Shown one piece after another: positions 1 through 64,000 of a stretch of DNA of 64,000 bases. Under the pieces are notes generated by a model that was not told the DNA's origin, ran no database searches, and was given only the letters and a program-made list of their open reading frames with translations. Positions within the stretch are counted from its first letter, which is position 1, and the number at the start of each line of letters is the position of its first letter. The position numbers were made by a program, and so were the translations under genes. Source of the DNA: Ophelia neglecta (Eukaryota); NCBI GenBank assembly GCA_965285935.1, contig OZ260661.1, positions 139,066,001 to 139,130,000 of the forward strand, written 5' to 3'.

Positions 1-104
1 ATGTTCCCCATTCGATTATTGCACGCATTCGCGGATATACCCCTTGCTGTCGGCCCCCCGACAGCGTTGGCCTAGTTTATATTGATATTAATTCACTTTT
101 GTAG

Positions 105-1696
<1,592 letters not shown>

Positions 1697-2139
1697 CGAA
1701 ATTACTAGAATATAATGATATTATATGGACCCTTAACATAATAAAACAATTGAGTGGCATAGATCGTGAATGATTAAGTTCAATGACATGTGTAATACAT
1801 TAGATAATGACGGATGATTCAGCAATAAAAGCAACACAAGTCACTCAGTGGTAAGTCCTTAGTTAAGAAAATATTGGTAGTGTTCGCTGGCTTATTTAGC
1901 TATTGAGGGTCGCTAACGACAATACCAATAATTTTATACAATTCATTGTGTTTGCATTTAAGATGATAATAAGAATGCTTACACATCAACATAAATACAA
2001 CTTACAAAAATCACATATATTGTATCTAAACATACTTTATTTGAACATGCTGTCAAAAAACCATTTGGTTAATACAGCTCCAATTAAGTTACAGGCCTCC
2101 GTCTTGAAAAAATAAATAAATTTAAGTAACACATTGAAT

Positions 2140-2730
2140 TGCACTAGTAAGAGGATAGCATAATAACATTTATAACTAAGTGCAAACATTTGTCAGAGGA
2201 TAACAAAATAATATTTATAACTACATGTACATTCATTCTCTAATGAGATGATAGGATAATGAGATTTATAACAACAAACATATACTAATTAGAAGAAAAC
2301 ATAATAACATTAATAACTACGTGCATACACTAGTTAGAGAGATAGCATAATAGCATTTATAACTACATACATATATACACTAATTAAAAGGTCGCATAAT
2401 ACCGTTTATAACTACATACATACTCTAATTAGATGATTACATAATACCATTTAAAACTACATACACACACTAATTAGATATTAGCATAATAAGATTTATA
2501 ACTAAATACATACACTAGAGGATAGCATAATAGAGGATAGCATAATAAGATTTATAACAACATACATACACTAGTTAGAGGATAGCATAATAAGATTTAT
2601 AACTAAATACATAAACTTATTAGATGATAGCATAATAAGATCAATAATTACATATATACAAAAGTAAGTGGATAACATGATAACACTTATAACTACATAC
2701 AAACACTAGTAAGATGATAGAATAATAACA
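2140..2730. repeat. Degenerate ~40-bp minisatellite (actagttagaggatagcataataagatttataactacatacatac)
   Basis: Many diverged tandem units are visible. The array is duplicated at ~4816-5406. Confidence 0.85.
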
Positions 2731-2911
2731 AAATAGTGCAATATAAAGAAGACATAAAAAACTTTATACTATCACACCCAATTTAAGATGAATATGATGA
2801 ATAGTTTGACATGATATTATAAGAACATCAAATGTACTAACCGTTATGGTAAGATAATTGCGAATATCGCTTTTAATTGTGGACATGGTCTTAAGAATTG
2901 ACGTGAATTGA

Positions 2912-4372
<1,461 letters not shown>

Positions 4373-10713: not shown

Positions 10714-11889
10714 TTATTCAGCTGGGTCAAACTCATTCCGTTTTTCTCCCCGTTCAGTAAGATCCATGTTTTCATATTCATTTAAATTGGACGTCGCTTT
10801 TCTTGCAACCCACCAATCCGTTAAAGGGGGGATGATGTTTCCAACAATGACAAGACAGATTCCCATCACTGCCTGCCAATTATGGTGTCCAGGTTGGTAG
10901 TAAGCAAGAATAGTATACTGAAAAATTCCAAGACAAACTATCGTGGAAGTACGTAGGATGGAGAATGTAACGAGAGGAATCATTTGAACAGAATATATAA
11001 ATAAGCCTGCGCTAATCCCAACTGTCCACCCATGACTAAGAAGTAACCCCCAACAATTTATATTTGTTGGTAAAATTGGAGATTCAAGTATAAGCATCAG
11101 CACAACAGAAAGAATGAAAGCAATGAATGCAATCCAAAATGAGATGATCTGCGGATTAACTGCCGATATACACTTGTTTATGATGAACAAAACGGCAAAC
11201 ATCCCTGCGGCAGATAACGTTGTAAATACATAACCCTTGAAATCGATGTTCATGGGTTCATTTGCATGAAAAGTTGAGTTTAAACTATTGTTGTTGAGTT
11301 TGCAGTGTCTTTCACTGGGCAGTGAAAAATTAGTATCACTGGCGAAGCACGTATACTGACAGGAACCATAAGCTACATCAGGTACATCCGTAAAGCCAAG
11401 AAAGTTAGGTTGAGTTATAAAGGTCACGCCGACTGTACATAACACAGAGGCACTAGCCGTACTCACTGAGCATGCTCGTTGAGAAATAGCCTGCTGAACA
11501 GACCCAAACACAACAATAAGCGTGGTTTGGAATCCTATCAACAATGTAACCGGTAGTATTGGAGCAGCCGAATACATAAAATGATTGGTCCCCAAAGCGA
11601 GAATGGAAACAATGAATACCCATCCGAAGTATCTTCTTTCGACGCTTGGGAGTGTTCCTTGTGCAACCAAAATGATACAACTCACCAAGATTTGTGGAAA
11701 AAATCTAAAAGCATTTAACTCCTGATCAGGAATGAATCCTCCCAATGCCTGTGCACTGGCTATGCCACAAGCATGACCAATTGACCCTAGAAGGCAGGTA
11801 AGACATCCCCATACGCAGTCAGACAAGATATAGCCATAATGGTGGAGCGCTGTGTCTTCAAATATCCGGTTTATCCAAGAAGACATCAT
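10714..11889 (-). CDS. SLC35G/EamA (DMT superfamily)-like multi-pass membrane transporter, single coding exon
   Basis: Uninterrupted ~391-aa ORF from the ATG at 11889, with about 10 hydrophobic segments in two EamA-like halves (e.g. IPDQELNAFRF...Q; YTILAYYQPGHHNWQAVMGICLV). Confidence 0.7.
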   Translation of the reverse strand: MMSSWINRIFEDTALHHYGYILSDCVWGCLTCLLGSIGHACGIASAQALGGFIPDQELNAFRFFPQILVSCIILVAQGTLPSVERRYFGWVFIVSILALGTNHFMYSAAPILPVTLLIGFQTTLIVVFGSVQQAISQRACSVSTASASVLCTVGVTFITQPNFLGFTDVPDVAYGSCQYTCFASDTNFSLPSERHCKLNNNSLNSTFHANEPMNIDFKGYVFTTLSAAGMFAVLFIINKCISAVNPQIISFWIAFIAFILSVVLMLILESPILPTNINCWGLLLSHGWTVGISAGLFIYSVQMIPLVTFSILRTSTIVCLGIFQYTILAYYQPGHHNWQAVMGICLVIVGNIIPPLTDWWVARKATSNLNEYENMDLTERGEKRNEFDPAE

Positions 11890-13089
11890 CGGGAGCGATA
11901 AACTTTCATATATCACAAGTGGAAAAATTCTCAGCCGTATTTGTCACAATTAGTCTTATTAGTATGCCTTTTGAAAGTAAGTTGATACAAGCATATGTGC
12001 ATTGCCAAATATAGTTTTCAGGGTGTATTATAGCAAGCACGTTTCACCGTTAGTGAACTGGCAATGATGTTTGTGGGACTGTGGCTGACGGATCCTGATG
12101 AATTGAAATGCTTTGACAGTATGTCGTTTGCTTAAAACGGTGCTTTATATGTCGGTTAACACTCCAGCTGTTTTAATGTTGTGCATATTACATTAATTTT
12201 TAACGTGGAACCAGGCTCCCAGCATATACATGTGTATCACAGCTATTGTATATATAGATATCACTAAGTAAATCTATAAATATATGTGACGCATCAGAGA
12301 TAATAACTTGGGTAGTCCAGTAATTGTGGTCAAATAGGTTTAGGCCCGACTTTACCAACTCTACACTAGTAGATTTAGTGTTGAAATGTCAGCCTGTTAG
12401 CCACAGGCACCAGCAAATATCAACAAAGGCAGGAGCAGTTTGTAGGTGTTCAGTGGAGGACACATTGTTTTATATTTCTTACAACTTATGTAGCCCATAT
12501 AGAAGGTAAAGTTGTCAAATATGTTTAATCTAACAGTTAAAGTGTTATCAAATAATGATACATATTCTAGTTAAGTTTGGTTGTGTGTAATTTTGTAAAT
12601 CATAAGTTAAGTATATAACTTGCCAGACTGGCTCGGTGTATTGCATTGTATATGTATGTGCAATGGTGTGCAGTTTCTCAACACATGTGATTTCAAGCTG
12701 ACTGAGAGTGGTTATTAATCATATGTATGGTGTTTGAATTGACGATGTTATTATTTCGGTCCAATATATGTGTTTTATGAAGTATTAATGAGCATTTATA
12801 TCCCGACTACATAATTTAAGGCATATACATTATTCCCTTTTTTCATTTACAGTTTAACCGTGAACACTCCAACAACTGTCTACAATAGGCCTATTGTGTC
12901 AATATCTAATGACTGTATGTTCCAAAAATAATAAACAAAAAACCTTAAGACATAGTGACGCATTTAGCTTGTATCAAGGGCTACCAAAGGCTATATAAAG
13001 TTTAACTTCTAGGTTCGTTTCACCACAGAAAGCTGCCAATATTGGCTACAAGTTTCAACAAATTCGACTAGTGTTCCATATAGTGCATC

Positions 13090-18731: not shown

Positions 18732-21700
18732 CTAATAAATACCTAGCGCAGCCAGCTGTTCAATTACACTGGGTAGATATCCACGCCTTTAAGAGAAATA
18801 TAGATTACTAAGAAGTAACGCTAATGTCAAATGTCTATATGATGTGATCATAGTTGCAACTATCTCAAAATTTGTTAATGTCATGACACGTGGCTGCTGT
18901 AAAAGAGGTTTTAATAAGCGGATTAATATACGGAACCTAAACCTGTGCGTTAGATTCTAACACATCTCATGCCTCATCATATAACAACATACATATTTCA
19001 TAGTAAATTATCACATCTGCTTACCAGGCTGCTTGTCCCTTGTTAGTTATAAGGTGGACCCCGTTCCATGTTATCTGGCCTCCAGCCCCAATAACGAATA
19101 ATACCCTGGCTTCAAATGCTTGTTTCAAAAGCTTCACTACTCGCTTACCCGCAGTAGTATCCTGTACGTATGCCTTGTGATGTTTACTACCGTACCTTAT
19201 GCCCTGTAAGTCAAGATGATAAAATTAGCAAAAAATACACCTGGATCTATTTAGATTAAATGAACTATTCTGAGATGATTTTCACTTTATAAGACGACAT
19301 TTATATTTAAATGTATACAGTATGTCAATAATGTTGTGGGTTCAGTTTGGATCAGCAACTAACTTTTGAATAAATATTTCAAATTATCCGTATTAGAAAG
19401 GATTGTGTTGATATGATGCAGTAGACATATCGTACCCGTTTTGTTTCTTAATATGCTCAGGAATGGATGATTAGTTTCATTCTCCGCCATCGGAGCTTAC
19501 AATTAAACATAAACACAACTCTTTACCTCGACTTCATGGTCGACATAGAAAGATACTTACTGTAGTCTTTACCCTCACCTGAACTTCAACCCGGAGGCTG
19601 TGCCTTGGTCGGACCTGTTTCTAAGGAATACAGATGTCTTTAAAATAAGTTTGATAAGTTACCTGTTGGTTTCCGGCAGGAAAATGAAATGATATTTCAA
19701 AAGTGCCGCCCTTGTTCCAGCATCCAGTAAGCTGGAGATCCATATGGTTGGTTGTCATAGTTCCATGTGGTTGTCCAGACGACCTGGTCGGCCTGGCTGT
19801 ACTGAGTTGGTTGAATAGAGAGTCTCCATACGCTCCAAAGTCGGAATCACTATACAGCCCATGATTTGGGTCGGTTGTATGTGCCTTGTACTGTGAATGT
19901 GGATATGGCAAAAACTGGTGTATGTTGTCTGTTTCGCCATGGTAATTTTCAACGCTTGGCGTTGTGTTCGGAATAAAATGTTCGTTCAATCTTGACGCCG
20001 ATCTCGTTTTGTAGTTAGCGTCTGGATGGGAATCGTCACGAAGTGTGTATAAATCAAGTTGTTGAAGTATAGAGAGGGCGGGCGATCTTCCGCTGCTTGA
20101 CTGCTCTCGTTGGTTGAGGTTTTTGACTGGAGCAAATGACAGGTTTGAGTCTTCCCTTGTACCGTACGAGTCGAAATCGTACTCTGGCTCCTGCGTAAAA
20201 TCTAGGTCTACATCATTGAAAGACCAGGTTCCTTGATTTAGAGAACTTTCATCGACATTTTGAGATTTAGGATGAGTTTGCAACATAGGACCCGGCAAAT
20301 TCTTATGGCCAGTGTGGACCAGTTTTTCGAGGAGCTCTCGCTTTGCCTGGTTTATATGCTGCTGATCGCCGATAATTTGGATTATTTCAGCATTGCAGTC
20401 AAAAACAACGTATTCATATTTTCGCTGCATGCCTCTAATCGTATCCGAGAGTTTACGTCCAGTGCACTGAAGTTTAGTGATGTCAATAGTTTCTTTGTGT
20501 ATTATGTCATTCAGTTCAGTTGCAATGAGTAAAACTTCCATCACACACTTGTCTACATCCTTCTTCGATCCTCTTATAAGTAAACCGTGCCCGTTCTCTT
20601 GTTCCACTGATTTGATTTTTACATCGCACAGCCTGCTTATTCTATCAAGGTCTGCCTTTCTAAACTGCTGTATATATTTGGACAACCGGTAATCTAAGTC
20701 TATTGTTTCGGTGATATGTTTGCTATTGAAAGATTCAGCTACATGGGTTAAAGTTTTAGATTGGAGTTTGTCAATGGTTTTCTTTGAGTTGCTGTCGACT
20801 ACCGATTTCATGGTCAAACTTGCAGCGTCATTTGTTGCCGTTACTTGTAACTTTCTCTGAAACGACTCGGCTAACTTCATCAAAGTAACCGACTGGTTAG
20901 TATCAATTATTTTCTTGTCGCTGTTGTCATCTAGGTTTATAGGGTGGGTCTGATTTGGCATAACACCCAAACAATCATGAAATTCAGAAACGATCAGTTT
21001 CTGTTGATTTATGTTATGTGATCTCTCTAATATCCGTACCACGACTGAAATATGAAAATGTACGCATATGCACAAGGTTTAGTACGATTCAATGTAATAT
21101 AACTTAATGTATACATTCCCTTTCTAATTGTTTTCATCGTTTACACACAAAAGAAACAACACAAAAAAATTCATAATAAGTACCTTCGTGGTCCTCATAA
21201 TGGATAAAAACACAATCTTGATCCGAATTCCTCTGGTATTGCACAATTTTTCCCCCTCCACTTCTTTGGCTTTCAAAATAGAGCTGGATTAAAAGGTCAT
21301 CAAGGCGTTTGACCCCTTCCACCTTGACAGCTGTAGACTTGCAAACCTTCTGTAGCCCTAGCATGTTACCCCGAAAAGGACGTACTCTCGTGAGTTCTCG
21401 CATCCTACTGAATTCTACAAATAACACAACACATATCACTGTATTCTATGTACAAATATGCAATCAGTAAAGCACCTGCTTTAATAAACGGGAGGCGAAG
21501 CAACAGTTCATTAGGACCGACTCCTAAAAAAGCACTGTTTTAAGTATGTTGTGTTTATGAAAGGAAATCTTGGGCAGATAGAAAAGGCGAGATTGTTCAT
21601 TCAATCAATGTGGAATATTGAGCAATAACTAATTAGCTATTTCAGTCCGCATACAAGAGGGGTTTGGCCTCTGTTTCTTTTCTTGTTTTTTGCCTCCCAA

Positions 21701-24700
21701 AGAACGCAGTGGCACTATTTCTTTTATATCATTATACATTTATAAAGAGACTCGTTATTGTCAAATGTTCATGTTGAATATAGTATTTTTTTCGAGAATT
21801 GGTTAATGATGTGAATCAAACGAGAGTGAAGATACACTAATTTTTATGTACATATACTGAACATAACTGTACAAAATTTTCTTTATATGTGAAGATCAAA
21901 TGATTTTTTTTCTGTCGGTACTTTTATATAAGAATTAAAAATATCTGTCTGGCTTAATATTAGATGCGTGGATTATCAGAAATGATATGCTATATATATA
22001 TATATTCTTCGAATGTTAATCATTTAGTCTAGTAGTCACATCTTTTTAAAGTGCAGTAGTCGCTTTACTCTTAAAGTCCTAATATGGTCTGGGTATTCAA
22101 TTAGGTCATTTCAATCTGTAAGGCTCCGTAGCTGAAGCGGGTCAAATCTTAACTGAGATTAAAATCAGAATTAAATTGCTTAATCGGCCTTAAATTGCTT
22201 AGGGTTTCTAAAAGCAGGATGCGCTCTTCCTATCCAATTTGGTCGTTAATTTATTCCTGATCAATAGAAACACGGATAAACGCAGTCTCAAGTAATCGGT
22301 TATAGACTAATATAATACCTACACGCAATACCGATTCCAGACACAAGGTACACGGCCCTCAAATTAAATGAAATAATCCACGAATGCTTATATTGGACAA
22401 ACCTATTGGACACTGGAAGGTCACCAAAGCTGTAGACATACTTTGACCCAGGATTACACCCTCGATAGGACTTGTAGCATGCTTCTCGAGAAATGCCTTT
22501 AGGTCCGTGAGCGTGCTGCCAAACGTAATATTAGTCACAAAAACTTTTTTATCATCAATACAACCATGTACATCTGGCATTATAATTGCAGCGGCAAGGG
22601 GTTTCACCGGTAAATGCATCTCCTTTGGCCACTGCGGGATACTAGCCACTCTTTCAGCAACTGGAACAATTGTTGAATAAATTAAAGTAAATAGCCTACT
22701 TTCCTGTTTAAAATTAATGGGATGATTGACAGAAATGAGTCCAGTTAATTTCTGGTGACACCTAGGGAAATATTCTACATAACTAATCTCTAAATATTTA
22801 ATGTCTTATAACTTTTAAAACCAATTATTAAAGACCCACATATAACATTTATTATCATATCAAAATGGCAATATTAAGATCGAATGTTTCCGAAAATGTA
22901 ATTGAAAATATTAATTTAACAATGCGAGGGTATCTTATAAACGCCTCCAAGTCCTTTTTCACATTCCCTACCTTTAGCAGATTTGAATGTGATGGTGACC
23001 GAGTTTGCAGATATCAGTTCGTCTGCATAGAATTCCTCTATTGTACCGCCTCCTGATCTGGGATCGCTCTCAAACCACCATTTGAGATACTCCCTTTCGA
23101 TAGCCTGGGGAATATTGGTAACAACGACTGCTAGGCTACAACCAGTGGTGACCGATTCTGTATATAGAGGAGATCTTTAAGAAAATTGTGTCCGGTCTAC
23201 TCGACAGATTAGAATATGCTATACAATAAACTAAAACTGTAGCAACTAAATTGTTATTATTAAGGTTCATCTTTAAACTATTCGCCGCGGTCATGTCAGT
23301 CAAATTGAAAGTGATACAGGAGGGAATCATTATAAGTGTATTCACACATTATCTTTCCCAATATTATTTTTTGTTGATAATAAAGAACCTATATAACATT
23401 GTTATAATAAGTTGAAACACTTTGTATCAGAAAGTTTTTTTTTTGTATCGCGAAAAGATATTTATTTGTATTTTATTCTATTGGTGGTTAAACATGATGG
23501 AAAATATAAGAATTACCTTCATTCCTGGCAGTGTCTCCCAAATGATTTCCGCACGAAAACCTACAATATATTAAAGCGATGACAGTTAAATATTTATTCA
23601 ACTTTATCAATTATGACGTTCTATTTCTTCCAATTTTCGTGGTTACCTGTTCGTAAGTCTGTTGAGGTATGGGTTTTGCACTGTTCTCAAAAATGAGGTA
23701 CTAAATGTGTACTCATAAAAAGTCGCAATGGCCCAAACATTTGCGCTCATTCATGCACTTTAAACAGAATTTTAATTTGCCATAATTCACGCTGCGCCTT
23801 AATTTCAAACTGATCGCCTCTTAGAGTAAATCAATGCTGACAACAAATCTTAACAAGTAATAATTTCGATTAACCTTTCCAAGATGACGATAAACGTGGG
23901 TCTTTTCGAAGGCACAAATACTAAACATCTGGTCATGATTTTCTCTGTATCCTGCACCTGCTTTCTCAGGCTGGTATAAGCCATAGAGTGCTGTGGTAAA
24001 CGTCGATCATTAAGAAATGAGGTTACACAGCGCCGAAAATCCTTCGATGTGTCAGGGTCATGCTCGAACTCTTTTTGGAATGGAAACTGAAAGTCAGGAT
24101 TCAGAAGACAATACAGTACACAGCCATAAGCCCAAACGTCAACCATTTTAAGTTCAGACATATTTGCGGATTTCAGATATCCAAGTATTGCCTCAGGGGC
24201 TTGGAACGGGATTGTTCCCCTGTCAACGTTTGCGGTGCGAGACGCTAGAATCGAATTAGTTTGAATGTTACAAGACCGTGCCTCTCCAAAGTCAGTTATC
24301 TTACACTCAATCACTATATTATCATCAAGAACTCCATTTTTGGTGTTCCCCACGAGGATATTGGACGGTTTAAGGTCTCGGTGAGCGATGTTGCTGTCGT
24401 GTAGGAATGCAAGTCCCTGAGCAGTGTTATTTGCAATAACCCTAATGATATCATACTCTTCTTGAAATAAACCAACAGCATCACATTCATGCAGCAATTT
24501 CAGAAGTTCACTTAGGTTTGTGACCACTTTGTTAATTCCGTATGGTTGTAAGTCGAAGGCCACATATTCCATTACAATGGCAAGTGGTTCAGCGACCGCG
24601 CCCAGTATTGACACTATATTAGGGTGATTCAATGCACAGAGTACATTCAACTCTTTGATCAATGTTTTAACGTATATTTCGTCATCGTCCTTTTGGTTCG

Positions 24701-25045
24701 TTTTCATTACACCTTTCGATTCTACAAATGAATAAGATAATTATTAAAACATTTGGTCAGTATCAAATTTTACTGTTATTTCGGACATACGATATGATAT
24801 AAGGATAACGTTAGTACACCCCGTTTAATAATGCACAATTAATTTGTGTTTATCAAACCCCTACCTCTTTTCAGTTTAAAAGTCACCAAATCTGCTCTAC
24901 CAAAAGAACCTGCCCCGATAGTCTTTTCAACCTTCAGGTCCTCTGGTGTCCATACTTTAACTCCAGCGCTTTCCAAAGCTTTTTTGCGGTTAATATGTTT
25001 ACACTTCAATTCGTGATAGTTCAGTTGGATTTTTGGTCTGTCCAT
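18732..25045 (-). CDS. Protein kinase - 3xRRM - KH - DTC fusion (RING-less DTX3L-like), ~1120 aa
   Basis: Nine exons form one open 3363-nt frame: 25045-24865, 24721-23875, 23560-23517, 23157-22972, 22660-22403, 21414-21184, 21044-19663, 19203-19025 and 18786-18732. All introns are GT-AG with matching phases. Kinase motifs are GAGSFG, VMK, KE, HRDLKPSN, DFG, APE and DVW. PARP14/DTX3L-type RRMs are WFESDPRSGGG and LYFESQRSGGG. The DTC reads GQPHGTM...FPAGNQQ / AFEARVLFVIG..ITWN / YLPSVIEQLAALGIY*. The kinase-to-RRM link depends on the donor AAG|gttaat and a 44-nt exon. Confidence 0.78.
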
Positions 25046-31990: not shown

Positions 31991-34900
31991 ATGGCAACTG
32001 GACGGAAGAGAATCCAACTTAAGCAGCCCGAGCCAGCTAAGTGCCCTGTTTCTGTCAAATTGGAAAACAAACTCGATATTGGCGTTCCAGTTTGGTCACT
32101 GGGAGATGTTGTAACAGAGAGTTACTTCGATGATAACAGTTTTGGAGCAGTCAAAACTGCTCATCATAAGACCGAACCAGGTATGAGATAATTGAAGACG
32201 TCTCAAACTATGCACTTACCTGTCCCAGAATATTGATGAAGTTTTTGATGTTTATTTTGATTTCCATCTGTTTATGTACTTAAAATAAAATTAAAATGGA
32301 AATGCGGTAAAATGTTAACATCCCAGTTATCATTGCAGCTAATTTTATTATATGTAAATAATTTTTTCATCGTTTAGGGTTGGCGGCCTTGTGGGCCACG
32401 ACGATAAAGCACACCAGTGATGAATGCTTTGCTAAACTGTTTTTGTCCGACATAGAACTCTGCCAGTTCAAACACAAACATATCCTTCAGATAGTAGCAT
32501 TGTCCATACAGCCACTAGTTGTTTATCATGAGGTAAATTCCTTCTCATTTGAAACGTACAACCAGCCAATTGTCGTCCACAATTTGGCAGATTTGTTGTA
32601 TCAATGTGACCGAGCAGAAGTAGTGCCCAGGATATATAACGACTACAATGTGCCAAGGACAGTTATAGACGCCGTGGTATCGGGCCTTGCGTTTTTACAT
32701 AGCAAAAGTGTCAATTGTGAACAATTAACCCCACAGAATATCATCATTGGCCAAAGCAGACTCGACAATGCTAAAGAAGAACTTGTCTGTAAAATTGGGG
32801 ACTTTTTACAAACCAGACGGTATTGCGAGCAGACACAAACTGGGTTGACCACCAAGTCCCTAGCGAACGAGCGCCAAACAGTCCCGTTTCAGCCACCGGA
32901 AAAATTAGTATATCAAGGGCGGTATTCTGATCCAGGGAAAACCGATGTTTGGTGTCTCGGTATGGTCACCTTCTGTGTCCTGAACCCTGATGTTCCATTT
33001 CCATTTTACCTAGAGTATACTCGCTCGCAGGCAAAGGATTTACGACAATTGGTAATTGAGAGTCTGAAGCAGAATAAGGTACCAGAAATGTCCCCTAAGT
33101 ATGACATTGGTAAATCAGAACCCCACCTCGTGGCACTGATGCAGCTTGCCTTGATCGATAACCCCGAAGAAAGACCGAGAGTGTCCGACATACAAAAATG
33201 GTAAGAAGTTCGTTGTTTTTTTTAAGTAAATATTGCAACTGAACCTGGAACCTATTCCAGATAAAAATAAGCCTAGGTTAATAGGTAATCCCAGATTAAT
33301 TGCTCAATAAGTGTTGATAATGACTTCATAAAAGGCACAATGCGGGTTTAGCCGCAAACCGGCTAAATAATTGGTTTATTGATGTCAAGCTTGGACTGTG
33401 AATTGAAAAATGGTGCGTGTCATAAATAACAAGCATTTTTTAATGATAATTCGGTCATTTCAGACAACCTTTGGCCAATAGTAAAGACAGATCTAGTAAT
33501 ATTTTGATACCTGGCTATTATCACCCGAGCTCTAAGAGCGTGGTCATAGGCAAAAATCTCTTTGTTAGTATAACAGGACTTTTTGTTAAGCCGAAGCTCA
33601 TTTTAAGCACGGTTTACACCAGTAAGGGCTTAGAGCACTTTTTATCTAACATGCCCCTGGTTATTGCGATAATAGTTTTGCTTTTAAAGGGATTTTTGAG
33701 GAATCGTTGTTGCTTTGGAGGCAAAGCTTTTATGTCCGGAGGTGGGGGTGCGGGTGGAGGTGGGATTGGGGGCTGGAGGCCTTTTCATATCCTTGATGGA
33801 GTTCGATTGAATTGCCTCCCGCTTTCATTGCTGAGGACAGTTTCTGAAAACGCCCTTGTGTCTTTATCTTACTTTCAGTTTGATAGATGGAACAGGACCC
33901 ACTTGTTATACACTGTCTAACAGACCAGAGTTACTGTGTGACTTACTGCGAAGCACTGAGTGCCAAGCTCTAATACGAAATGCACTAAGGAGCAAATCTA
34001 TAAAAATCACGATTGGCTCAAGGAACATAGTTGTTTACGCTCTGACCAGGAAAATGGCTGAAGATACAGTAACCTTTTTCAATGAAAATTTCATACACGA
34101 GAACATTGAAGTTGACACTGCTGGCAAACCGGTTTTAGTGTCAAAAAAATGGGAATCATTTTTAGCAAACCACTTGGAGGAAAACAAAGGTCTCTTGCAG
34201 ATGAAAACAAACCATGATCAAAGCACAGTGCACATTTGTGCTGCTAAAGTTATACAGATTGTAGACAAAATAAAGCATTTTCTGGAGGAAAACACCATAG
34301 TCGAGAAAAGAATCAGTATTCCAACTGAGAAAATGGAATTTGTGGAAACGCATCTTATAACATTTACTAAAACAATTGCTCAAATGCCAAATCTGTCTTT
34401 CCACTCAAATGGTGGCGATCCCTTTGTACAGATAAATGGTAACATGAGCGAAATCAAGACAAGTACCGACATGATCGAACGATACACAAAAGCCATTGCC
34501 ATTGTGGCATATGCCCTGGAAAAGCCCGCCCTAGTTTGGCACTTTCAACAGCGGAAAGGTGAAGCTAGCCTGTCCGAAATCAGTCGACACCACAATGCTA
34601 TCATTAGAATGGAAAGAGAGGAGGGGACTTTCCAATCGAGTAAGTCAACGTCTCATTTCACTCTGATTTCGTTCGCATCGTTCTGGTCTACATTGGAAGA
34701 CAATTCAATTATATTATACCTTTATTTCTGAGATATATATGGGTCCAATCCTTAAGTGTTCGCAAAGACTGGTTACAATTAATGAATACCGTGTGCTTGT
34801 ATTGCAAAGTATAAGGTAAGAATAAAACTTGAAAATTGACTATATTGTGAATGTAAATAGGCACATGATAAATATTCAAATATTACAAAGATAACCAGAA

Positions 34901-37900
34901 ACATGCTATTACAACCCTTACAAGTGAATGGACATGTAAAGAGAAACAACTATATCAATGGAGCCAAGCGCATTGGAACGTTCGGCATATTTATTCTGTG
35001 ACTGAGACAGTTACAGTGGCAGTAAAACATATAATAGGTCAAAAAATGTCTTCGAAACAGATCTTCAAATACACGTATTGTTTACGAGTTTTGAGGGATC
35101 TTATATACAATTATAATAAAGAATTGCATGGCTTTTGCTTGATTTTACCCCAAAATGAGGCGCACTGTGCTATGTATACCTCGCTATAGACATCTGGTTC
35201 GGTTGAAGTTAGCCTCAGTTAACCTTGTCTGGTTAGGATATATCTGATCAAATACTTTTAAATTAAAGTATTATCAATCTGGTTTTAGGTTTATCAAGCA
35301 GATGCATAATCATCACGGCAGAGTCCATCGATGTCGCAAAGACGTGTGTAGAAACATTAAAAGACTTATGCAAAAACATTTGGCTGGAAAAATCGGTCTC
35401 ATATCCAGGAGAAAAGAACACTGAAGATTGTCGCAATCAAGTAAGTGCATGGATTTTGCACTTTTGCCATTACCTGTCATTTTTCCTTTCCATCACTATT
35501 ATACTGTGTACATTGCTGGTTCTGTCTTTTTGGCATATTTATATTGTTTAGACCGTTCTAAAACCAATTGAAATGTGTTATGTTTATGACACAACATTAT
35601 CAAAGATCCATTATATTAGCTGGTGGTACAATTCCTGTACAAACTTCATCACTCAAGTTTCAATGGTATTGTGTCCTAGGTTTTGACTATAAAAAGAATG
35701 GCCGTTCGATTGCACGTAGACATGGATCTAGAAGGCGATGCTATAAAACTAAGCGGGGTAGGGGATCAGGTCAACGCTATGGCAGAGAACATTTACAAGG
35801 TGTTTATAGCCGGAATTGAAAAGGGAGCTGCTGAAAAGGAGCTTGCAGCCCTGACATTACTACATACGCAGGTGTGTTAAGGATTTATTTGCCTTCGCAA
35901 TGTGGCTTTTATCACCAGACTCTCCTTATATCAGATTACGTCTTTTATTGGCTAAATTCTGTGGCAAGCGTCGTTAGTATTTAAGCATGGCGAATTGGTA
36001 TTTAAGGGCCTACATACGACGGTAGCTGGTGATTACTGACCGATTAAACAGACTGGTAATAACTCTGTTTTGTCTTTCGCATATGCACTACAGTTGTATG
36101 AGCAAACTGGTAACATTTGTTTTGTTCAAAGGTGAAATGGTATTATGAAGTAAATGGACAGTTCGTAGAATATCTAGTCGATCATAACGCCACATTGGAA
36201 AGAGCCTATACCGAAGGAAGACATGATATTTCGTTAGTCTCAAATCAGGGTAGGGAAACCGTGAATGTTAGAAAAATGGAAGGTCACAACCAAAGTGGTA
36301 CATTTCGAGTTCTGAGGCAAATTCAAGGTAATGTAATGCAAAAAATGAAAAAAATATCCCTCCGAATTCAGCTACTATGTAAACTCACGAAATATATTCG
36401 ATCGGTTTTTTATTTAGAAACTTCATCAGAAAAATTGCCTGCTGAATGGTCCAAGATGGGTAAAACTGATGTCTTTATGTTGGTTGCCTTGTCCGCTGAT
36501 TCCAAGGAATTCAATGATGTCAAGTGTGAAATACTTAGGACTTCACAAAACAAGATCAAAGAAGTTCTCAAGGTAGCCATTATTCCTATAGTCAGTGCAG
36601 GTAACAACTCTACATTTTAATGTGGAGATGGTAAGGTATAGTAATTTACTACGAGTTAAACCTTAGTATCTTTGTTGGCGGACACGTCATGTCATGTTCT
36701 AACGAGTGGCATGTTCCAGTACTGCGTGTTGCTCATTCTTCAAAGAATATTAATTGATTAAGGCCACCAGAGGTCGAAGGCCATTTGTATTCCGCCAATG
36801 AAATACTCTTGTTGTTACATCGATCCTTCTAATATTATATACACTTGAATATTAAAATAAAGTGATTACTATTTAATCAATTAATTATAGCATTGAAACG
36901 TTCATCTGGTTACAAAAATGTCCATTGTTTATTTAGATTGAGCGAGTTCAGAATCCAGGCCTGTACCGGAAGTACAAAGTCCATAGAGAGGAGATGGTGA
37001 AGTCTGGTACTGCAAGACCGATAGAAAGGCAACTGTGGCATGGATCTGACATAAATGCTATAGCTAGCATCAACTTGTACGGATTTGACCGGGGATACTG
37101 TGGTAAAAACGGTAAGAATATTGAATAAAACAAGCTTTTTTGGTCCCATATTGAGACTTTTTTGGAGCGATTTAATGGCGTATTCCTGTTAAACAATTAC
37201 GCTCCTTGTGCTGGGGATCCACTTCTGTTTTTGTTTCATAAGATATATTTTGTGACAAGAACACTTTTACTTGTCTTAAATATAGGTTAAAATTCTGCAT
37301 TTTTATTAATCTTTGCCTAATGATAGTTCCATAAAACGACTCCCCTATATAGAATATATTTTTGTAGGATTGGGGTTTCTACTCTGTAACATGTAACTTT
37401 GTGGCTGTCTGTTAGTGTAGGAGTGAACATGTGAATTTATTGAATTTGTTAAAAAATATACATTACAAATACAAGAAGAAATACCATGATAGAATTCAGC
37501 ATGAAAGTTATTACTTTATGCATATTAACTCGATAAATATTAAGTATGTTTTGCTTACCAAATAGAGGATGTGTGGCCGCTGTATATGGTGCCGATTCTC
37601 GTTTATAATTTTATTATAGTTGATATTGATGAATGGTTGGCTTCACCCCATACATGAATAATGTGAGGGTAAAAAAATCTATAGTATAAGGTTGTTGAGT
37701 GGTTGAGCTATATAGCCCGAAAACCGTTCTGTATAAATAAGAATATAAATAGCCCAAGATAGTGTCACGCCAATCATAATACCTAAAAACTAGACCCATT
37801 ACAATTTTTTTCCTGAGAAGTAGATCAAATGTAATACCTTTTGTTAACATCTTGATAACTTGTTCGACTTGATCCAATCAACTTTTTTTTCTTTTCCTGT

Positions 37901-40152
37901 GAGCTTAGATTCTTTCTTGATTAACATGTTTTCCCGATGCCAAAATATTGGTATCATTGGCAAATATTATAGGAAATACAGCTCAAGATTCATTCATAAG
38001 TTCATTTACATATATTAAGGACACCAATGGCCCAAGTATAGAACTCTCGGGTTCTACACTTATTCTGTAGGTTAACACTCAATGATATAGAGATAATGTT
38101 CTATGTCGTGTAAGCAAACTATGTGCAATATATCTATAAGAATATCATGTGCCACCGTTTCAAAGGCTGGGTAAAGTCTATACATATACCCATTACAATA
38201 TTCCCATTGTTTATGAGAAGTTTATCTACCAGGCCAGTCAATGCCATATTTGAGCTGTGTTTTCCCCTAAACCCTAAACAAGAGTCTTCATACGTCACAC
38301 GCTCAAATATATAAGAAAACAGATCTAAGATGGCAGAACACAGACTGGGTGATAAGTGTTAAGAAATACGCTTTTTTCACATTTATGTACAGGAATAAAA
38401 GAAGCAAGTTTGCGTTCTGAAGGAAAAGTGGCAGTGGTCAATGACATGCTTGCATAAGTACCATCACAGCCATGACCTGTAGTTTGTAATGATGTGATCA
38501 TTGTTTTACTTTACTCATATCAGTTTCTTCAAAATACGTTGTGCGAGTAACACCTTGGCCAACACATATTTTTTGGATTTTTATGACGCTAGCCTGGGGC
38601 CTACATTTAAATACAATTGATTAAGAATGGATATAACCCGCCTGTTTGTATCATTTATAAAAACAACAGACTTGTTTTTAATACCTTATTTCTATTAAGA
38701 ACCTCTTTAATAGTTCTCCAGGTTGTCCTCAAATTACTTTGGTTTCCTTCATTTTATTATAATAATACTCTCTTTCTTGCATACGCAAAAGCTTATTCTT
38801 GGCTGCCTGATAATCTTTATAACATTCTTCAAAGATTAGGATTATTTCTAGGTTTTTCAATAATTTCAGAGCAAAAAAAATCAGCCAACGTTTTTTATTA
38901 CCTTAAAGGAATAGGTTCTTTATGAACCCTTCATTATAAGGTACATGCCATTTGCCAGTCATTAACCATCGGCCAATTTACACTTGATGTTTGTATAAAA
39001 TAATGCAATAATTCTAGCTAAATATTTCCTTGATTTACAATAACGAACATTGTTTAAGGGCTTGGAATTTTTGCAAATGCTAATTGTTTGAAAATGATCT
39101 AAAGCATGGTGTAACACGTATCATTTATTAACTTAATATTCCTATCATCATTACTTAATATTTTGTCAATTAATGTGGCAGAATTCCTCTGTATCTGTTT
39201 AGGCCTATTGATTAATCAAACAGATCCGTTGAACATGGTTTTGAAAATTCCAGAGTGAGAAAGTGAATATAAGCATTGAGAAAACTAATATTAATATTAA
39301 TCCTGGCAGACCTAAACCTGTTTATTGTCATGCAAATACCAGTAATGGATAAAAAGATAGCTCAGATGATCAAACATTTGTCCATTCTATCATAAGAAAC
39401 GTTAAGGTGGTGTTGTTTAATATATATGATGTGTTCATCAAACCTAAGAGCACCAAGTTCACAAAGTGAATACAGTGGTGCAATAATGAAGAAAAAGGTG
39501 CATATAGATTTTTAATCCGGAACATAAAATAAGGAACATAGAGTATATACAGGGAACATATGATGCACTGGGAACAACATAGATATAAACAACAAAGCTT
39601 ACAGGCTATCTGTAACCATGTTCACATAATTCAAATATTTACACAATGGAAATATTTTGCACAATTGGCATTTAATTTATTTAATCAAATCCTTTACATG
39701 AAGTACCATGTTTTTAATGAGGATACTTTTACCGGCAGTCCAACAGCGTTTATTTTCCTTCTTGAGGTTCGGACTTTCGTCCAGACTGTGGCTCTTTCTA
39801 TTGTCTTTAACATTAAATCAAATTGTTCACCCTAAACACGACTGTTATGATTTCTGATAACAATTCTGTTTTACTTTCAGCTACTGCATTTGGCAGTGGA
39901 GTTTATTTTGCTGCCAACGCGTCCTATTCATACAGTTATGCCAAAGCCGACAGCAGCGGAAAAAGGTACATGTACCATTGTAATGTGTTGACCGGAGATT
40001 TCGCTCAAGGACACTCATCTATGAGAGTGACGCCGATTAAGAATGGATTAATTAAATTTGATTCAGTTGTAGACAATACCAAGTCGCCAAGTATATTTGT
40101 AATATTCAACGATGCACAGGCATATCCAGGGTATTTAATCACATTCAAATAA
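31991..40152 (+). CDS. PARP14: Pseudokinase - KH - WWE - PARP catalytic (mono-ART) fusion, PARP14/15-like, ~971 aa
   Basis: Nine exons form one open 2916-nt frame: 31991-32180, 32378-33200, 33879-34639, 35289-35440, 35680-35871, 36132-36327, 36418-36572, 36937-37111 and 39881-40152. WWE reads VKWYYE...FVEY...LERAY. The ART reads IERVQNP...LWHGS...GFDRGYCGKN/ATAFGSGVYFA...FDSVVDN..SPSIFVIF..AQAYPGYLITF* (H-Y-I triad). The symbol denotes the subfamily only. Confidence 0.85.
37600..39500 (-). mobile_element. Degenerate CR1/L2-type LINE in the last PARP intron
   Basis: Minus-strand remnants include IFANDTNI (FADD-like, ~37945-37966), SILGPL (~38030-38050) and endonuclease-like segments near 39150-39400. 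Many stops are present. Confidence 0.65.
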
Positions 40153-59359: not shown

Positions 59360-62300
59360 TTAGTTAATCCCTTTAGCTGCTAGCTCTTCTTTCACCCTCC
59401 CTAGATAAGCTGCATCCGGATAACCATATCTGTGTTCAAAGAAAACATAATTCATGAGCCAGCTTTGCTTCATTCCTTAGAATCATGTTTCCCAGGCAAT
59501 GAAGGTCGATAGTTTTGTGCTTATACCTTAAATGTTATATTCATATGATAATCGACTATGCCCACTTGTTCTTTATTCTTAGGAATAATAACATTTTCTC
59601 AGGAACATACCTGGCAGGCCCGCCTGACATGCTAGTTTTGTGATGAATGTCATTCCAAGTGATTTGATCGTCCTGTCCCGTAGTTGTAGACCTCCCGATG
59701 GTAAATATTAGTCTGGCGTCAAAGGCACGCTTCAGCAGGCGAAGGACTTGGTTACCTTCTTCAGAATCGGGTAGGTAGGCTGTCCGTCTGGTGCCATGGA
59801 ATCGATGGCCCGGATGGGGATGGCAATCCTGAAATAAGTAAGTAATAATAACGGCATTCATGTCGAGACTACTACTTTGTGTGAAGTTAGTGTGGCAATT
59901 TACATGATCACAATTTTGACAGCTAGAATGGGGATGCTGTGAAAACGCGAGTAAATTTAACATATTATTACCAAAATGACACGCTATTGTAGTTCTCTGG
60001 ATGCATAAAGGAATCCAACGCTGCATTTCTACACTCATTTATTAATATTTTATTTTTAAAAAAGAAATACGAATCTGACCAGCGGCAAGATTGAACTATA
60101 TCGATAAAGGCATTTTAATCAGGATACCTTAATTTAAGATTTAAATCTCGCGATCTAGGGCAGCCAAACTTTATTATTTAGTTCAGCTAAAAGATTATTT
60201 ATATTAAAATTGCTAAGGTTTCCAGTGAGGCAGTTTGGGAGAAATATGCAACATCCAATATCGGTAAAAACTGCTGTGGTATTTGTTTAATGCGTGATTT
60301 GAAACAATTCCAATAAACATTATCTCGAACCAGAGCTACAGAATTGTGTTACCTTTTGCCTGCCTCCTGGAAACTCATAGTGTATGACAATAGTTCCGCG
60401 GCATTCCTCATAGCCAGGAAGATGGGCTGGTGATCCGTTGGTTGTCATGGTGCCGTCTGGTTGGTCCCCCTTTACTTCCCCGTGGATCTGACCACAGTTA
60501 GGGCAGGTTGGTTTATTCCTAAACCAAGTCTCTATACATGCCTTGCAAAACACGTGTTTACATATTTGAAGTACCACCTTATTGCTCGGGATTTCCATAC
60601 ATATGGAGCAGGTTTCATCTTTTGTTTGTATCCGTAGAAAATCGGTTCTGCTAAGTATTTTGAATTGCGTTACATGGTTAGCCGATTCTATGCTGGTGTG
60701 TTGAAGCGAATTCAGCGCGGTATAATCCGTTGGCCGGTCAATTATTTCATGACGGTATCCCTCTTTCGTAGTGTATCCTGAGGCTGAAGGGCGGCTGGCA
60801 GCCTCAAACTTGGAGTTATCAATCGACGAGACTCGATAGAACTGCGAAGCCCCAACAGTATGAATGATACCTTGCTCTGTGTCTTCAGCCTTTGGTCTCT
60901 GCTGTGGCTCCGGGTGGCTGATGAAATTTTCAAATTCTGCTGGAATTGACTGTAGAGTTCCCTGGAAGACCTCCTGTTCGAAATAGACCAATACGACTTC
61001 TAATAGTTCTTTATTTTTGTCAACAAGGAAAATGTCCCTTATTTGTGTCTCGGCAACTTGTCCACTCACAAACTTGTAAACAGCATTGAAAATAATCTTA
61101 GCCGGGATGTCCAAGGTTCCTCCATAGAAACCTTTAGTGAGACAGAGAGAACATGTTAAATCACGTTAGCATGGCTTAAGTCGAATAATTGACAAATGTC
61201 AAATAATTGCCTTTGTTCTCCAAATAGTGTGTGATTTAGATTGCAATTTAATTCTTTGTTGTATTACTGCAATAATCGCCAATAATAAAGAGGCCCCATT
61301 TAAAGATAGCTGACTGTTAACATGACGACACAAAGCCACATTAATTGTATCATTAAGAATGAGTTGCGTACTTCCCAGGTTCAACGTGTAAACGTCATTT
61401 ATCATTATTAATACCATTACCTTGAAACGTGCTTACAGCGGCCATAATCAAACAATTTAATTGTATTTTTATAAATCATAATATTCAAAATGGAAGGCAT
61501 TTATCAAATGCGTCCTAAAACATAGAACTTTCAGATGTTGGATATTTTATCAATCAGAGTAACTCAAAAGTGAAAGCAAGGACAGTCTCATATTAGGGAA
61601 CAAAAGATGAAGGTCCCAGGAGGTGTATAAACTTAAATACTTCAAGCAATTGGCCATTTAGGCTTGAGAAATCACATTTTAATAAATTCTGAGAAAACCA
61701 GGAAGCAAACAAATGTAATTTAATGTTTTAATTAAAGTTTTCTACTGTTCTTGCCTAACTGTATGATGGTTACATACTATAAATGCAAGGCCAGAGTTAA
61801 TTTGGGCCAGGGGCAAAGTGGACACGACGTATTTCAATATATCACATATAATATTGCATTCTTAACCAATAGCGATGAATATTGACTTGAAAATAGCCAT
61901 AGACGTCACCAAATAAGAACTTGATTTTCACCGCTATTTGGTTCATTTTAAACATCCGTGAAGATAACGAATAGAGTATGAACGGGATTTTTGACGATTT
62001 ATTTTTTTGAGATGTCTTGGTGCAACAAAAACGGATATGGATATCATTGATTTGCATTTATTAACTTTATTTGACATTGCCATGGCCCACATTTGTGTGG
62101 CAAAAGAGCCATATATGTTGACGTGAATAAACATATACAGTATTACTAATAATAAAATAGTATACTACCTGAGCCCATTGTTGGTATTGCAATGGATGGT
62201 AGATTGCGACAATCTGCTTCAGCCAATACATTTATGAAGACAGCGTTAAGGCAGGCTTCAGCCTTCAGCTTGTCTGTGTAATCCGCCCACCTAGGTGCGT

Positions 62301-62646
62301 TCACGTGGATGATACAGTGACAGGGCATGTTGTAGGCTTCAGATGTATATAATTGGAACTTTTTCAGTTTCCCGTTCTTTGTGATGTATCGAGTACATTC
62401 AGTCTGTAGCTGGGATCCGGCTGCTTTACTGATTGCCCCCGCCACACCTCCAGCGAGCTGAAATTCGGCACTAGCTCGATTGACCACGGCACCCACAAAT
62501 AATCTCGTTATATCTCTTTTGCCAATGTGGATCTTTATTCCGTTCTTTGACCTATAGGTGGCGCTTATGTCGACATCAGTAGGATATGCCAAGGAAGGAG
62601 GCAAAAGGCGCCGATTCCTCCTGTATTTCCGAAGCAAATTCAACAT
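59360..62646 (-). CDS. DTX3L: Macrodomain-RING-DTC Deltex-family (DTX3L-like) E3 ligase
   Basis: Exons are 62646 (or acceptor 62620)-62169, 61131-60353, 59828-59611 and 59429-59360, in phase. The macrodomain reads RDIT...VVNRAS...LAGGVAGAISKAAG...IIHVNAPRW...SIAIPTMGS|GFYG. The RING is CSIC...CKHVFCKAC...CPNC. The DTC reads HPHPG...YLPD...[10 protein letters not shown]...[22 protein letters not shown]. Phase-compatible but speculative 5' exons are 63891-63841 and 63673-63639. Confidence 0.9.
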
Positions 62647-64000
62647 AAATAACTAGTTGATCACGTATTGTGATTATACATAATGTAGCTAAACCAATCC
62701 ATAGTTGAAGCATTTAAGCCAAATATTTACTATACCTGAAACCAACACTCATTAACAATAGATCCGTAGATAATTCTACCTCTATAACTTGTAATTCTCA
62801 GGTTATTGGTAATGTTTGCCCAAACTTCGAAAGGTCTTCCTTGCATTGGTAACAAAGCAGCGATTTATACTGTTTGCTTTAAGGTAAAGAGTTCTCCAAG
62901 GCACAATTCAAACATTTAGCTTTTAAGTATGAATGGCTCTCCTGTTGACATTATCATACCCGGATGTGTATAATATATGCCAGTGTACAGCTGATTGAAA
63001 GCTGGTTAGCTAATGAAGAGGAAAGGTAACCTCAAGTAGCAATGCCTACGTGTTTTGGTACAAGGCTGATATTGTGCACTGTCACATGTAAACATACTCT
63101 GTACTAACATCGATAGAACGATATTGACGAATCGAATGTTACAATCTTTTAAGAACATCAGCCTGTATTTGCGGTTCAAACAAGAGACACCTCATGGTGA
63201 CAACATTATAACTTCCAAAAACCACCGTGCCCGATCTCAGCATTCATTCACTGCCGATGAGAAGCATCAGTGCTTGGGCATGGCGGTTTATTTTTTTCTG
63301 TCACTGGTTTCATAGACCTTTGGCACCCCGTTGACGAAACGACATTCTAATATCTCATATATGTGCATAGCCCACAAGGCAAAACTTCTGTATTTTACTT
63401 CCTTTTGTCCTGATTTACCAGTATAGCTCGGTGAATTATGACAAGTTTAAGGTTAACTTAGTACATACTTGACGTAAAGCGTATCTCCGATATAGAAGTT
63501 AGGTTCGGTTTTGTTCGTTATACCTCTTATAACAAACTTCAAAGTATTATACTTGTATGATAAATAAGGACATGCATATATTGAAATTACTAGGAGAGAA
63601 ATGCTTCTCTTAGTCTCGAAATACACAATATAAATTACCTACTTTGGCTGTTGCATCGTTGGTCCGAGTCAACCTAAGGATCTATATGCACAGAACAATT
63701 GAAATGGGTCTATTTGAGTCGAGCGACTATGATATCAACGCCAATTGAATAATATACTGATAAAATCACATACAACATAGGCATTTAGCTATGTACAATC
63801 CCTACACCATAGTATGATTGGAAATGATTTTCTTTCTGACCTGACCTAAATGGCGCTCGCTATCGATACGCACCCAGAAGTCTACTTTCATAGCCAACGA
63901 GTTGTCAGTCTAGGCTGATGGTTGGTATTCCCCCTTATTCCTGTTGATACAACAGTGTTTCCCAGAGCACGAATATGCCGCGTTGTGATTACGTATTAAA

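What the first reader, a model, noticed from the sequence alone, without database searches (positions are those of the whole stretch)
59360..62646. Macrodomain fused directly to RING-DTC: PARP9-DTX3L-like function in one chain
The macro exon (..IPTMGS G|) splices in phase to GFYGG..., which completes the macro fold and continues to the RING and DTC. Vertebrate Deltex proteins have WWE or RRM/KH N-termini, and DTX3L obtains macrodomains from PARP9 in trans. RING-DTC can ubiquitinate ADP-ribose. Inference: a single-chain mono-ADPr-targeted E3 acting on substrates of the neighbouring PARP. Such fusions may already exist among invertebrate annotations.
Basis: partly seen in the sequence, partly recalled or inferred. 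Interest (0 to 1): 0.7.

Follow-up and report, generated by a model that had tools for sequence, protein, structure and literature searches.

The report
Short macrodomain-Deltex ligase, eroded pocket
This animal gene joins a macrodomain to a Deltex ubiquitin-ligase module in one predicted protein, a layout already known from many invertebrates and present in about 40 copies in this genome; in this copy the ligase end is intact, but the macrodomain's ADP-ribose pocket is altered and likely no longer binds or removes ADP-ribose normally.

Summary
Four minus-strand exons with GT-AG introns give a stop-free 514-aa macrodomain-RING-DTC protein. The phase-1 splice completes the macro fold without a gap and recurs in 40 of 45 macro entries modelled from this genome. 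No RNA run was available, so the splice is inferred.

The fusion is not new. It occurs in 85 of 120 listed public homologues (sponges to Ciona), a 2026 preprint reports that DTX3L lost its macrodomain when PARP9 arose, and this scan noted the same layout in another genome.

1. The gene is one of about 40 macro-Deltex copies, most in a 3.5-Mb cluster.
2. Most sister copies carry KH-like domains (some also RRM) before the macro; this copy has lost them.
3. Its ADP-ribose pocket is eroded (NASN to NRAS, His64Leu, Gly117Ala; 14 of 62 conserved positions changed, against at most 6 in 25 close paralogues), while the RING and DTC catalytic His481/Glu507 are intact and under purifying selection.

Best reading: a short DTX3L-type E3 with a likely hydrolase-dead macrodomain. 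A link to the neighbouring PARP is unsupported.

The parts
62169..62646 (-). Exon A: short leader and first three quarters of the macrodomain; 5' boundary uncertain (first in-frame ATG 62646; homology to paralogues begins near 62625-62560)
   Evidence: model of this exon pLDDT 91.8 with macro fold
62455..62481 (-). Altered ADP-ribose loop 1 (N56-R57-A58-S59 ... F62-Q63-L64); paralogues have N-A-S/A-N ... L-x-H
61132..62168 (-). Intron 1, 1037 nt, GT..AG, phase 1, inside macro loop 2
   Evidence: same position in paralogues
60353..61131 (-). Exon B: end of macrodomain (to about 60977), linker, C3HC4 RING (60610-60494, C334-C372), start of DTC
59829..60352 (-). Intron 2, 524 nt, GT..AG, phase 0
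59611..59828 (-). Exon C: DTC core with WNDIHHKT (catalytic His481)
59430..59610 (-). Intron 3, 181 nt, GT..AG, phase 2
59360..59429 (-). Exon D coding part: DTC end with Tyr493, Glu507 and the stop codon
59255..59305 (-). Two candidate polyadenylation hexamers 54 and 99 nt after the stop (consensus match only)
62653..64000 (.). Single-copy DNA where paralogues have the KH-coding part of their long exon; no KH or RRM remnant found here or in the next 22 kb

Best explanation
The four exons form one stop-free macrodomain-RING-DTC reading frame of the invertebrate macrodomain-bearing DTX3L type, and this copy is likely a short, still-working Deltex E3 ligase whose macrodomain has likely lost normal ADP-ribose handling. 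Shown: exon structure, domains, residues, copy number, and loss of the upstream KH/RRM region. Inferred from established Deltex chemistry: the RING would recruit E2~ubiquitin, and the DTC would bind ADP-ribose (free, on protein or on nucleic acid) and activate its 3'-OH through His481/Glu507. In the typical sister copies the macro is predicted to be an MD1-like reader/eraser that proofreads the mark in cis, the role PARP9 MD1 plays in trans in mammals. Here Arg57 at the phosphate-facing Ala, Ser59, Leu64, Ala117 and Phe161 are predicted to abolish hydrolysis and weaken binding, so the protein would write ADP-ribose-ubiquitin without its own eraser, and the macro would persist as a folded scaffold.
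For: Splice. Family: 40 of the 51 strongest DTC exon matches have a same-strand macro exon less than 4 kb upstream, and 43 of 51 lie in C1 136.2-139.7 Mb; 85 of 120 listed public homologues have macro + DTC. Ligase end: H481 and E507 in 29 of 29 models; 1 of 24 RING and 3 of 81 DTC conserved positions changed; the His-Glu spacing of 26 equals DTX2 H582/E608 and DTX3L H707/E733; dN/dS to the six nearest paralogues is 0.13-0.26 (RING) and 0.11-0.21 (DTC); 27 allelic differences in exon B are 12 synonymous and 15 nonsynonymous against 22% synonymous expected (p 0.007), with no stop or indel. Macro: 14 of 62 conserved positions changed, against a mean of 2.0 and a maximum of 6 in 25 close paralogues (Fisher p 4e-4 against its own RING+DTC); Arg at NAAN position 2 in 0 of 113 other macros; PMC7729036 says this Ala faces the phosphates and that even Val most likely destabilises binding; the hydrolase signature of PMC10221186 is met by 23 of 28 paralogues but not by this copy.
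Against: No transcript evidence. The start codon context is weak and no promoter was identified. Macro dN/dS is still 0.26-0.38, and Asp45, Gly66-Gly67 and loop-2 Gly/Tyr are kept; Ser is allowed at the second Asn position, so some ADP-ribose binding may remain. One run's contig has the usual Gly at position 44. Contigs over 61751-64000 differ from the assembly at only 0, 4 and 2 of 2250 bases, against 11, 12 and 20 of 703 in exon B. The 5' arrangement may therefore be young, and the selection signal in exon B may predate it. The three runs carry one sample label and may include the assembly's source.
Confidence: 0.58

Rival explanations
1. A recently 5'-truncated copy that is silent or decaying, as expected from birth-and-death turnover in a large tandem family.
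For: The KH/RRM region is missing and there are only 36 open codons before the macro, while 36 of 45 entries have 200 or more. The ATG context is weak. The 5' region is nearly monomorphic. Several neighbours carry stops or frameshifts, and an LTR element with 99% identical LTRs lies 7 kb upstream.
Against: All three introns and 489 codons are intact, whereas a frame of this size survives 10% neutral change in 0.2% of simulations. Allelic pN/pS in RING-DTC is about 0.21. The upstream DNA is single-copy with no coding remnant and is followed by old repeats at 70-75% identity. The erosion is confined to the macro. No orphan 5' half of this clade was found. Single-macro-first proteins of 527-980 aa exist in 6 of 85 public records, though these may be incomplete models.
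Confidence: 0.2
2. One reading: the macro still binds mono-ADP-ribosylated substrates, as a reader without eraser activity, and hands them to RING-DTC, possibly substrates of the neighbouring PARP.
For: Fold predicted intact. Asp45, GG and loop-2 glycines kept. Loss of only the hydrolase residues would turn an eraser into a reader, as in PARP14 MD2/MD3. A WWE-PARP gene lies 19 kb away and many PARP14-like genes lie in the same cluster.
Against: Arg57 sits where a Val is already predicted to clash with the phosphates, and Gly117 is invariant in 28 of 28 paralogues. Nothing links this gene to that PARP beyond proximity.
Confidence: 0.17
3. The macro exon belongs to a separate transcript.
For: No RNA evidence for the junction was obtainable.
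Against: Exon A alone lacks the last helix and strand of the fold, and exon B supplies them in register. The intron position is conserved across paralogues over lengths of 141-1451 nt. One-chain records exist in many phyla.
Confidence: 0.02

Closest known systems
Macrodomain-bearing DTX3L orthologues of non-vertebrate animals (bioRxiv 10.64898/2026.04.23.720386; e.g. Asterias amurensis P0004, RRM-KH-macro-RING-DTC)
   Same: Macro, linker, C3HC4 RING and DTC in one chain; DTX3L-type DTC.
   Different: This copy lacks RRM/KH, has an eroded macro pocket, and belongs to an array of about 40 copies.
Human DTX3L / PARP9 heterodimer
   Same: RING-DTC with catalytic His/Tyr/Glu (H481/Y493/E507 match H707/Y719/E733 by spacing); macro related to PARP14 MD1 and PARP9 MD1.
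   Different: One chain, one macro, no ART domain, no RRM/KH. PARP9 MD1 is an active hydrolase; this macro is predicted not to be.
PARP14 macrodomain 1 and its independently inactivated mammalian versions (PMC10221186)
   Same: Same MacroD-like class; the sister copy L039 matches PARP14 MD1 at E 3e-28; loss of catalytic residues in an immune macrodomain has precedent.
   Different: Here the macro is attached to an E3 ligase, not a PARP, and the loss affects one paralogue among many.
RNF146 and WWE-type Deltex (DTX1/2/4)
   Same: ADP-ribose-linked E3 logic; shared RING-DTC for the Deltex proteins.
   Different: They use WWE domains for poly-ADP-ribose. No WWE was found in the three exons scanned here.

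Membership tests
Deltex E3 ligases | C-terminal RING followed by DTC | tested here: met
   Pfam; eight zinc ligands C334-C372
Deltex E3 ligases | DTC catalytic His-Glu pair | tested here: met
   H481 and E507, spacing 26 as in DTX2 and DTX3L
Deltex E3 ligases | Ubiquitylation of ADP-ribose | not testable with these tools
   needs an in vitro assay
Macrodomain-bearing DTX3L of invertebrates | DTX3L-type RING-DTC | tested here: met
   DTX3L DTC E 3e-27 against DTX1/DTX2 E about 3-6e-19; 3 of the 4 exon B hits are named DTX3L-like. No family tree with all five Deltex clades was built.
Macrodomain-bearing DTX3L of invertebrates | Macrodomain in the same chain before the RING | tested here: met
   (splice inferred from DNA)
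Macrodomain-bearing DTX3L of invertebrates | N-terminal RRM/KH (usual, 'with few exceptions'; not obligatory) | tested here: not met
   none within about 23 kb upstream; present in sister copies
MacroD / PARP14-MD1-type ADP-ribosyl hydrolases | Macro fold | tested here: met
   TM-score 0.84-0.92 to macroH2A, PARP9 MD1 and PARP14 macros
MacroD / PARP14-MD1-type ADP-ribosyl hydrolases | NAAN motif and His before the glycine loop | tested here: not met
   NRAS and Leu64
MacroD / PARP14-MD1-type ADP-ribosyl hydrolases | Asn/Ser + Gly flanking loop 1; aliphatic + aromatic in loop 2 | tested here: not met
   Ser59, Gly67 and Tyr162 fit; Phe161 does not. 23 of 28 paralogues and 40 of 85 public proteins fit
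MacroD / PARP14-MD1-type ADP-ribosyl hydrolases | ADP-ribose binding and hydrolysis | not testable with these tools
   needs ITC and a hydrolase assay
PARP9 | Two macrodomains plus ART domain | tested here: not met
   one macro and no ART in the 514-aa model

The most novel reading that the evidence does not exclude
The array of about 40 macro-Deltex genes, interleaved with PARP14-like genes, is a diversified invertebrate immune repertoire of ADP-ribose-ubiquitin writers. This member dropped its RNA-binding domains and rebuilt the macro pocket under selection to recognise a new ligand (a pathogen protein or a modified nucleotide), making it an eraser-free, retargeted E3; the nearly monomorphic 5' haplotype would be a recent sweep.
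Probability: 0.13. Interest if true: 0.65.

Novelty: new member of a known kind. Interest (0 to 1): 0.3.

Why it matters
The fusion itself is known in outline, and I saw no biochemical test of it in the papers I read. This genome offers a natural panel: dozens of single-chain macro-RING-DTC proteins, most with a hydrolase-type pocket and one with an eroded pocket. Comparing them would test directly whether a macrodomain next to RING-DTC recruits substrate, proofreads the ADP-ribose-ubiquitin mark, or is dispensable. PMC10810221 calls this coupling of synthesis and removal paradoxical for PARP9:DTX3L. An expansion of this size did not appear in my paper searches.

Tried and rejected
RNA evidence: no RNA holder listed. 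The three runs laid cover the introns and show no splice joint, so they say nothing on expression.

Upstream exons: tblastn with paralogue long exons and RRM exons, a KH-region profile and shuffled DNA alignments found nothing between the macro and the next paralogue. The protein-like text in frame 2 upstream is not homologous to paralogues.

Orphan 5' half: none of this clade in the genome. Transposon at the 5' break: none found, the DNA is single-copy.

Promoter: one CpG-richer stretch about 2.7 kb upstream, no ISRE match; not claimed.

Orthologues with the same altered pocket: the homologue search returned only 2 distant proteins, which is weak evidence either way.

Single-sequence fold was uninformative (pLDDT 35.5); the alignment-based fold worked. 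No complex prediction was run.

A first splice model was off by one base and was corrected. Branch-specific dN/dS was not obtained; pairwise and relative-rate values stand in. Sixteen of 45 entries failed my automatic model; some are pattern or locus-end failures, so I do not count them as pseudogenes.

Full report
1. Observation. The minus strand holds four exons: 62646-62169, 61131-60353, 59828-59611 and 59429-59360. GT-AG introns of 1037, 524 and 181 nt separate them, and the product is 514 aa without a stop. Pfam gives Macro in exon A, RING and the DTC start in exon B, and DTC in exon C. The first intron is phase 1 inside macro loop 2. A profile made only from 85 public macrodomains aligns the spliced product with no gap at the junction; exon A covers positions 5-133 and exon B 136-184. 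Exon A folds as a macrodomain (pLDDT 91.8; TM-score about 0.9). No RNA holder was listed, so splicing is inferred. DNA contigs of three runs confirm the arrangement, including the DNA upstream of the macro.

2. It is one of many. The genome gave 110 DTC matches and 83 macro matches. Of the 51 strongest DTC matches (main exon), 43 lie in C1 136.2-139.7 Mb, and 40 have a same-strand macro exon within 4 kb upstream, using the 55 best macro matches. Of 45 macro entries modelled, 40 gave the same phase-1 donor and an in-frame acceptor, and 29, this gene included, gave complete four-exon models; one locus was counted twice and one entry is an unrelated macro. PARP14-like RRM, macro and PARP exons lie in the same cluster. 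The nearest paralogues are 60-64% identical in exon A, with dS about 0.8-1.1, so this lineage is old.

3. The layout is widespread and in print. A search with the starfish protein P0004 (RRM-KH-macro-RING-DTC) gave 497 hits, of which 120 were listed. Of these, 85 have macro plus DTC. Their source names span a sponge, cnidarians, molluscs, a brachiopod, a bryozoan, echinoderms, a hemichordate, amphioxus and Ciona; none is a vertebrate and some are unnamed. Of the 35 without a macro, 31 are vertebrate by name. Six of the 85 begin with a single macro within 30 residues of the start. [quoted passage not shown] Its Figure 1d and supplements were not visible.

4. This copy is short. In 36 of 45 entries the macro ends an exon with 200 or more open codons before it, coding KH-like domains; RRM exons lie further upstream of some. 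Here only 36 codons are open. DNA likeness to paralogues ends near 62560, with a few more similar codons to about 62625 by eye. No KH or RRM signal lies in the next 23 kb. The DNA from 62540 to 64000 is single-copy, followed by old repeats and an LTR element. The ATG at 62646 has a weak context. The age of the loss is not settled.

5. The macro pocket is eroded and the ligase is not. Against positions at least 85% conserved among paralogues, this copy differs at 14 of 62 in the macro, 1 of 24 in the RING and 3 of 81 in the DTC (Fisher p 4e-4). The 25 close paralogues differ at 0-6 macro positions; the three most distant differ at 16-25 but also diverge in RING and DTC. The changes include Gly44Arg, Ala57Arg, Asn59Ser, Leu62Phe, His64Leu and Gly117Ala. 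Arg at position 57 occurs in 0 of 113 other macros. PMC7729036 (passages) places this Ala facing the phosphates, where Val already most likely destabilises binding, and gives the second Asn and the His roles in holding the distal ribose. The hydrolase signature of PMC10221186 (section 14) is met by 23 of 28 paralogues and 40 of 85 public proteins, but not here. A sister macro matches the hydrolase PARP14 MD1 best (activity in PMC10499325, passages). Against this reading, Asp45, Gly66-67 and loop-2 Gly/Tyr remain, and one run has Gly44. His481 and Glu507 match the DTX2 and DTX3L catalytic pair by spacing (PMC7615817 passages).

6. Selection. dN/dS to the six nearest paralogues is 0.26-0.38 (macro), 0.13-0.26 (RING) and 0.11-0.21 (DTC). 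Macro dN to five outgroups exceeds that of the sisters in 30 of 30 non-independent comparisons, with no such excess in RING or DTC. Exon B shows 27 allelic differences, 12 of them synonymous against 22% expected (p 0.007), with no stop or indel. Caveats: the runs share one sample label, and the 5' region is nearly monomorphic, so this signal could predate the truncation.

7. Mechanism. Inferred: the RING binds E2~ubiquitin and the DTC activates the ADP-ribose 3'-OH. In typical family members the macro would read or erase the mark in cis, as PARP9 MD1 can in trans (PMC10810221 passages). In this copy that function is likely lost, leaving an eraser-free Deltex ligase without nucleic-acid-binding domains. 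The neighbouring gene (WWE 36114-36617; PARP exons 36937-40152) has His-Tyr and no Glu at the third position by my reading, which fits a mono-ADP-ribosyltransferase. It lies tail to tail 19 kb away, and nothing else links the two. PMC13224862 and PMC11251020 (passages) gave background only.

8. Verdict. Real and correctly spliced on paper, and a new member of a known kind. The size of the array and the pocket contrast within it are the parts worth following. Interest 0.3.

Noticed in passing
G000 C1 136.2-139.7 Mb (window lies at 139.066-139.130 Mb); smaller clusters on C9: 43 DTC exons, about 40 macro-Deltex genes genome-wide, interleaved with many PARP14-like genes. A very large expansion that my paper searches did not turn up.
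   Followed up: partly
window 19024-24740 (-): A divergent Deltex-like gene: RRM exons (22970-23137, 21137-21445) and a KH-containing long exon (19624-21078) with no macro and no RING; its DTC reads WNGVHLIT instead of WNDIHHKT. An intronless protein-kinase ORF (23853-24740) lies directly upstream on the same strand; whether it is spliced in was not tested.
   Followed up: partly
window 32362-40152 (+): Degenerate kinase ORF (32362-33201), then a KH-like ORF (33835-34728, by eye), WWE (36114-36617) and PARP catalytic exons; a possible kinase-PARP14-like gene without macrodomains. Another kinase ORF lies about 118 kb beyond the window end.
   Followed up: partly
window 92-4369 (+): 3' end of another macro-Deltex gene (its macro exon lies just before the window, L038), followed by a tandem partial duplicate of its RING-DTC exons.
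   Followed up: partly
L054 (C1 139.63 Mb): A paralogue with repeated RING units in its second exon: four RING hits, two of them identical complete RINGs.
   Followed up: no
L001-L002, 5.7-13.3 kb beyond the window end: LTR retroelement with 716-bp LTRs at 99% identity, a recent insertion between this gene and the next paralogue.
   Followed up: no
window 61751-64000 versus 60011-61027: Run contigs differ from the assembly at 0-0.2% over the macro exon and its upstream DNA, but at 1.6-2.8% in exon B and 6.7% for one allele of intron 2; a 221-nt deletion allele lies in intron 1. Possibly a sweep at the 5' end or old balanced alleles at the RING exon.
   Followed up: partly
G000 C5 111-116 Mb and C9 15.8-19.9 Mb: Large arrays of RRM exons closely similar to the Deltex RRM exon, in regions with no DTC or macro match; their genes were not examined.
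   Followed up: no
window 10717-11943 (-): Intronless 409-codon EamA-like transporter ORF.
   Followed up: no
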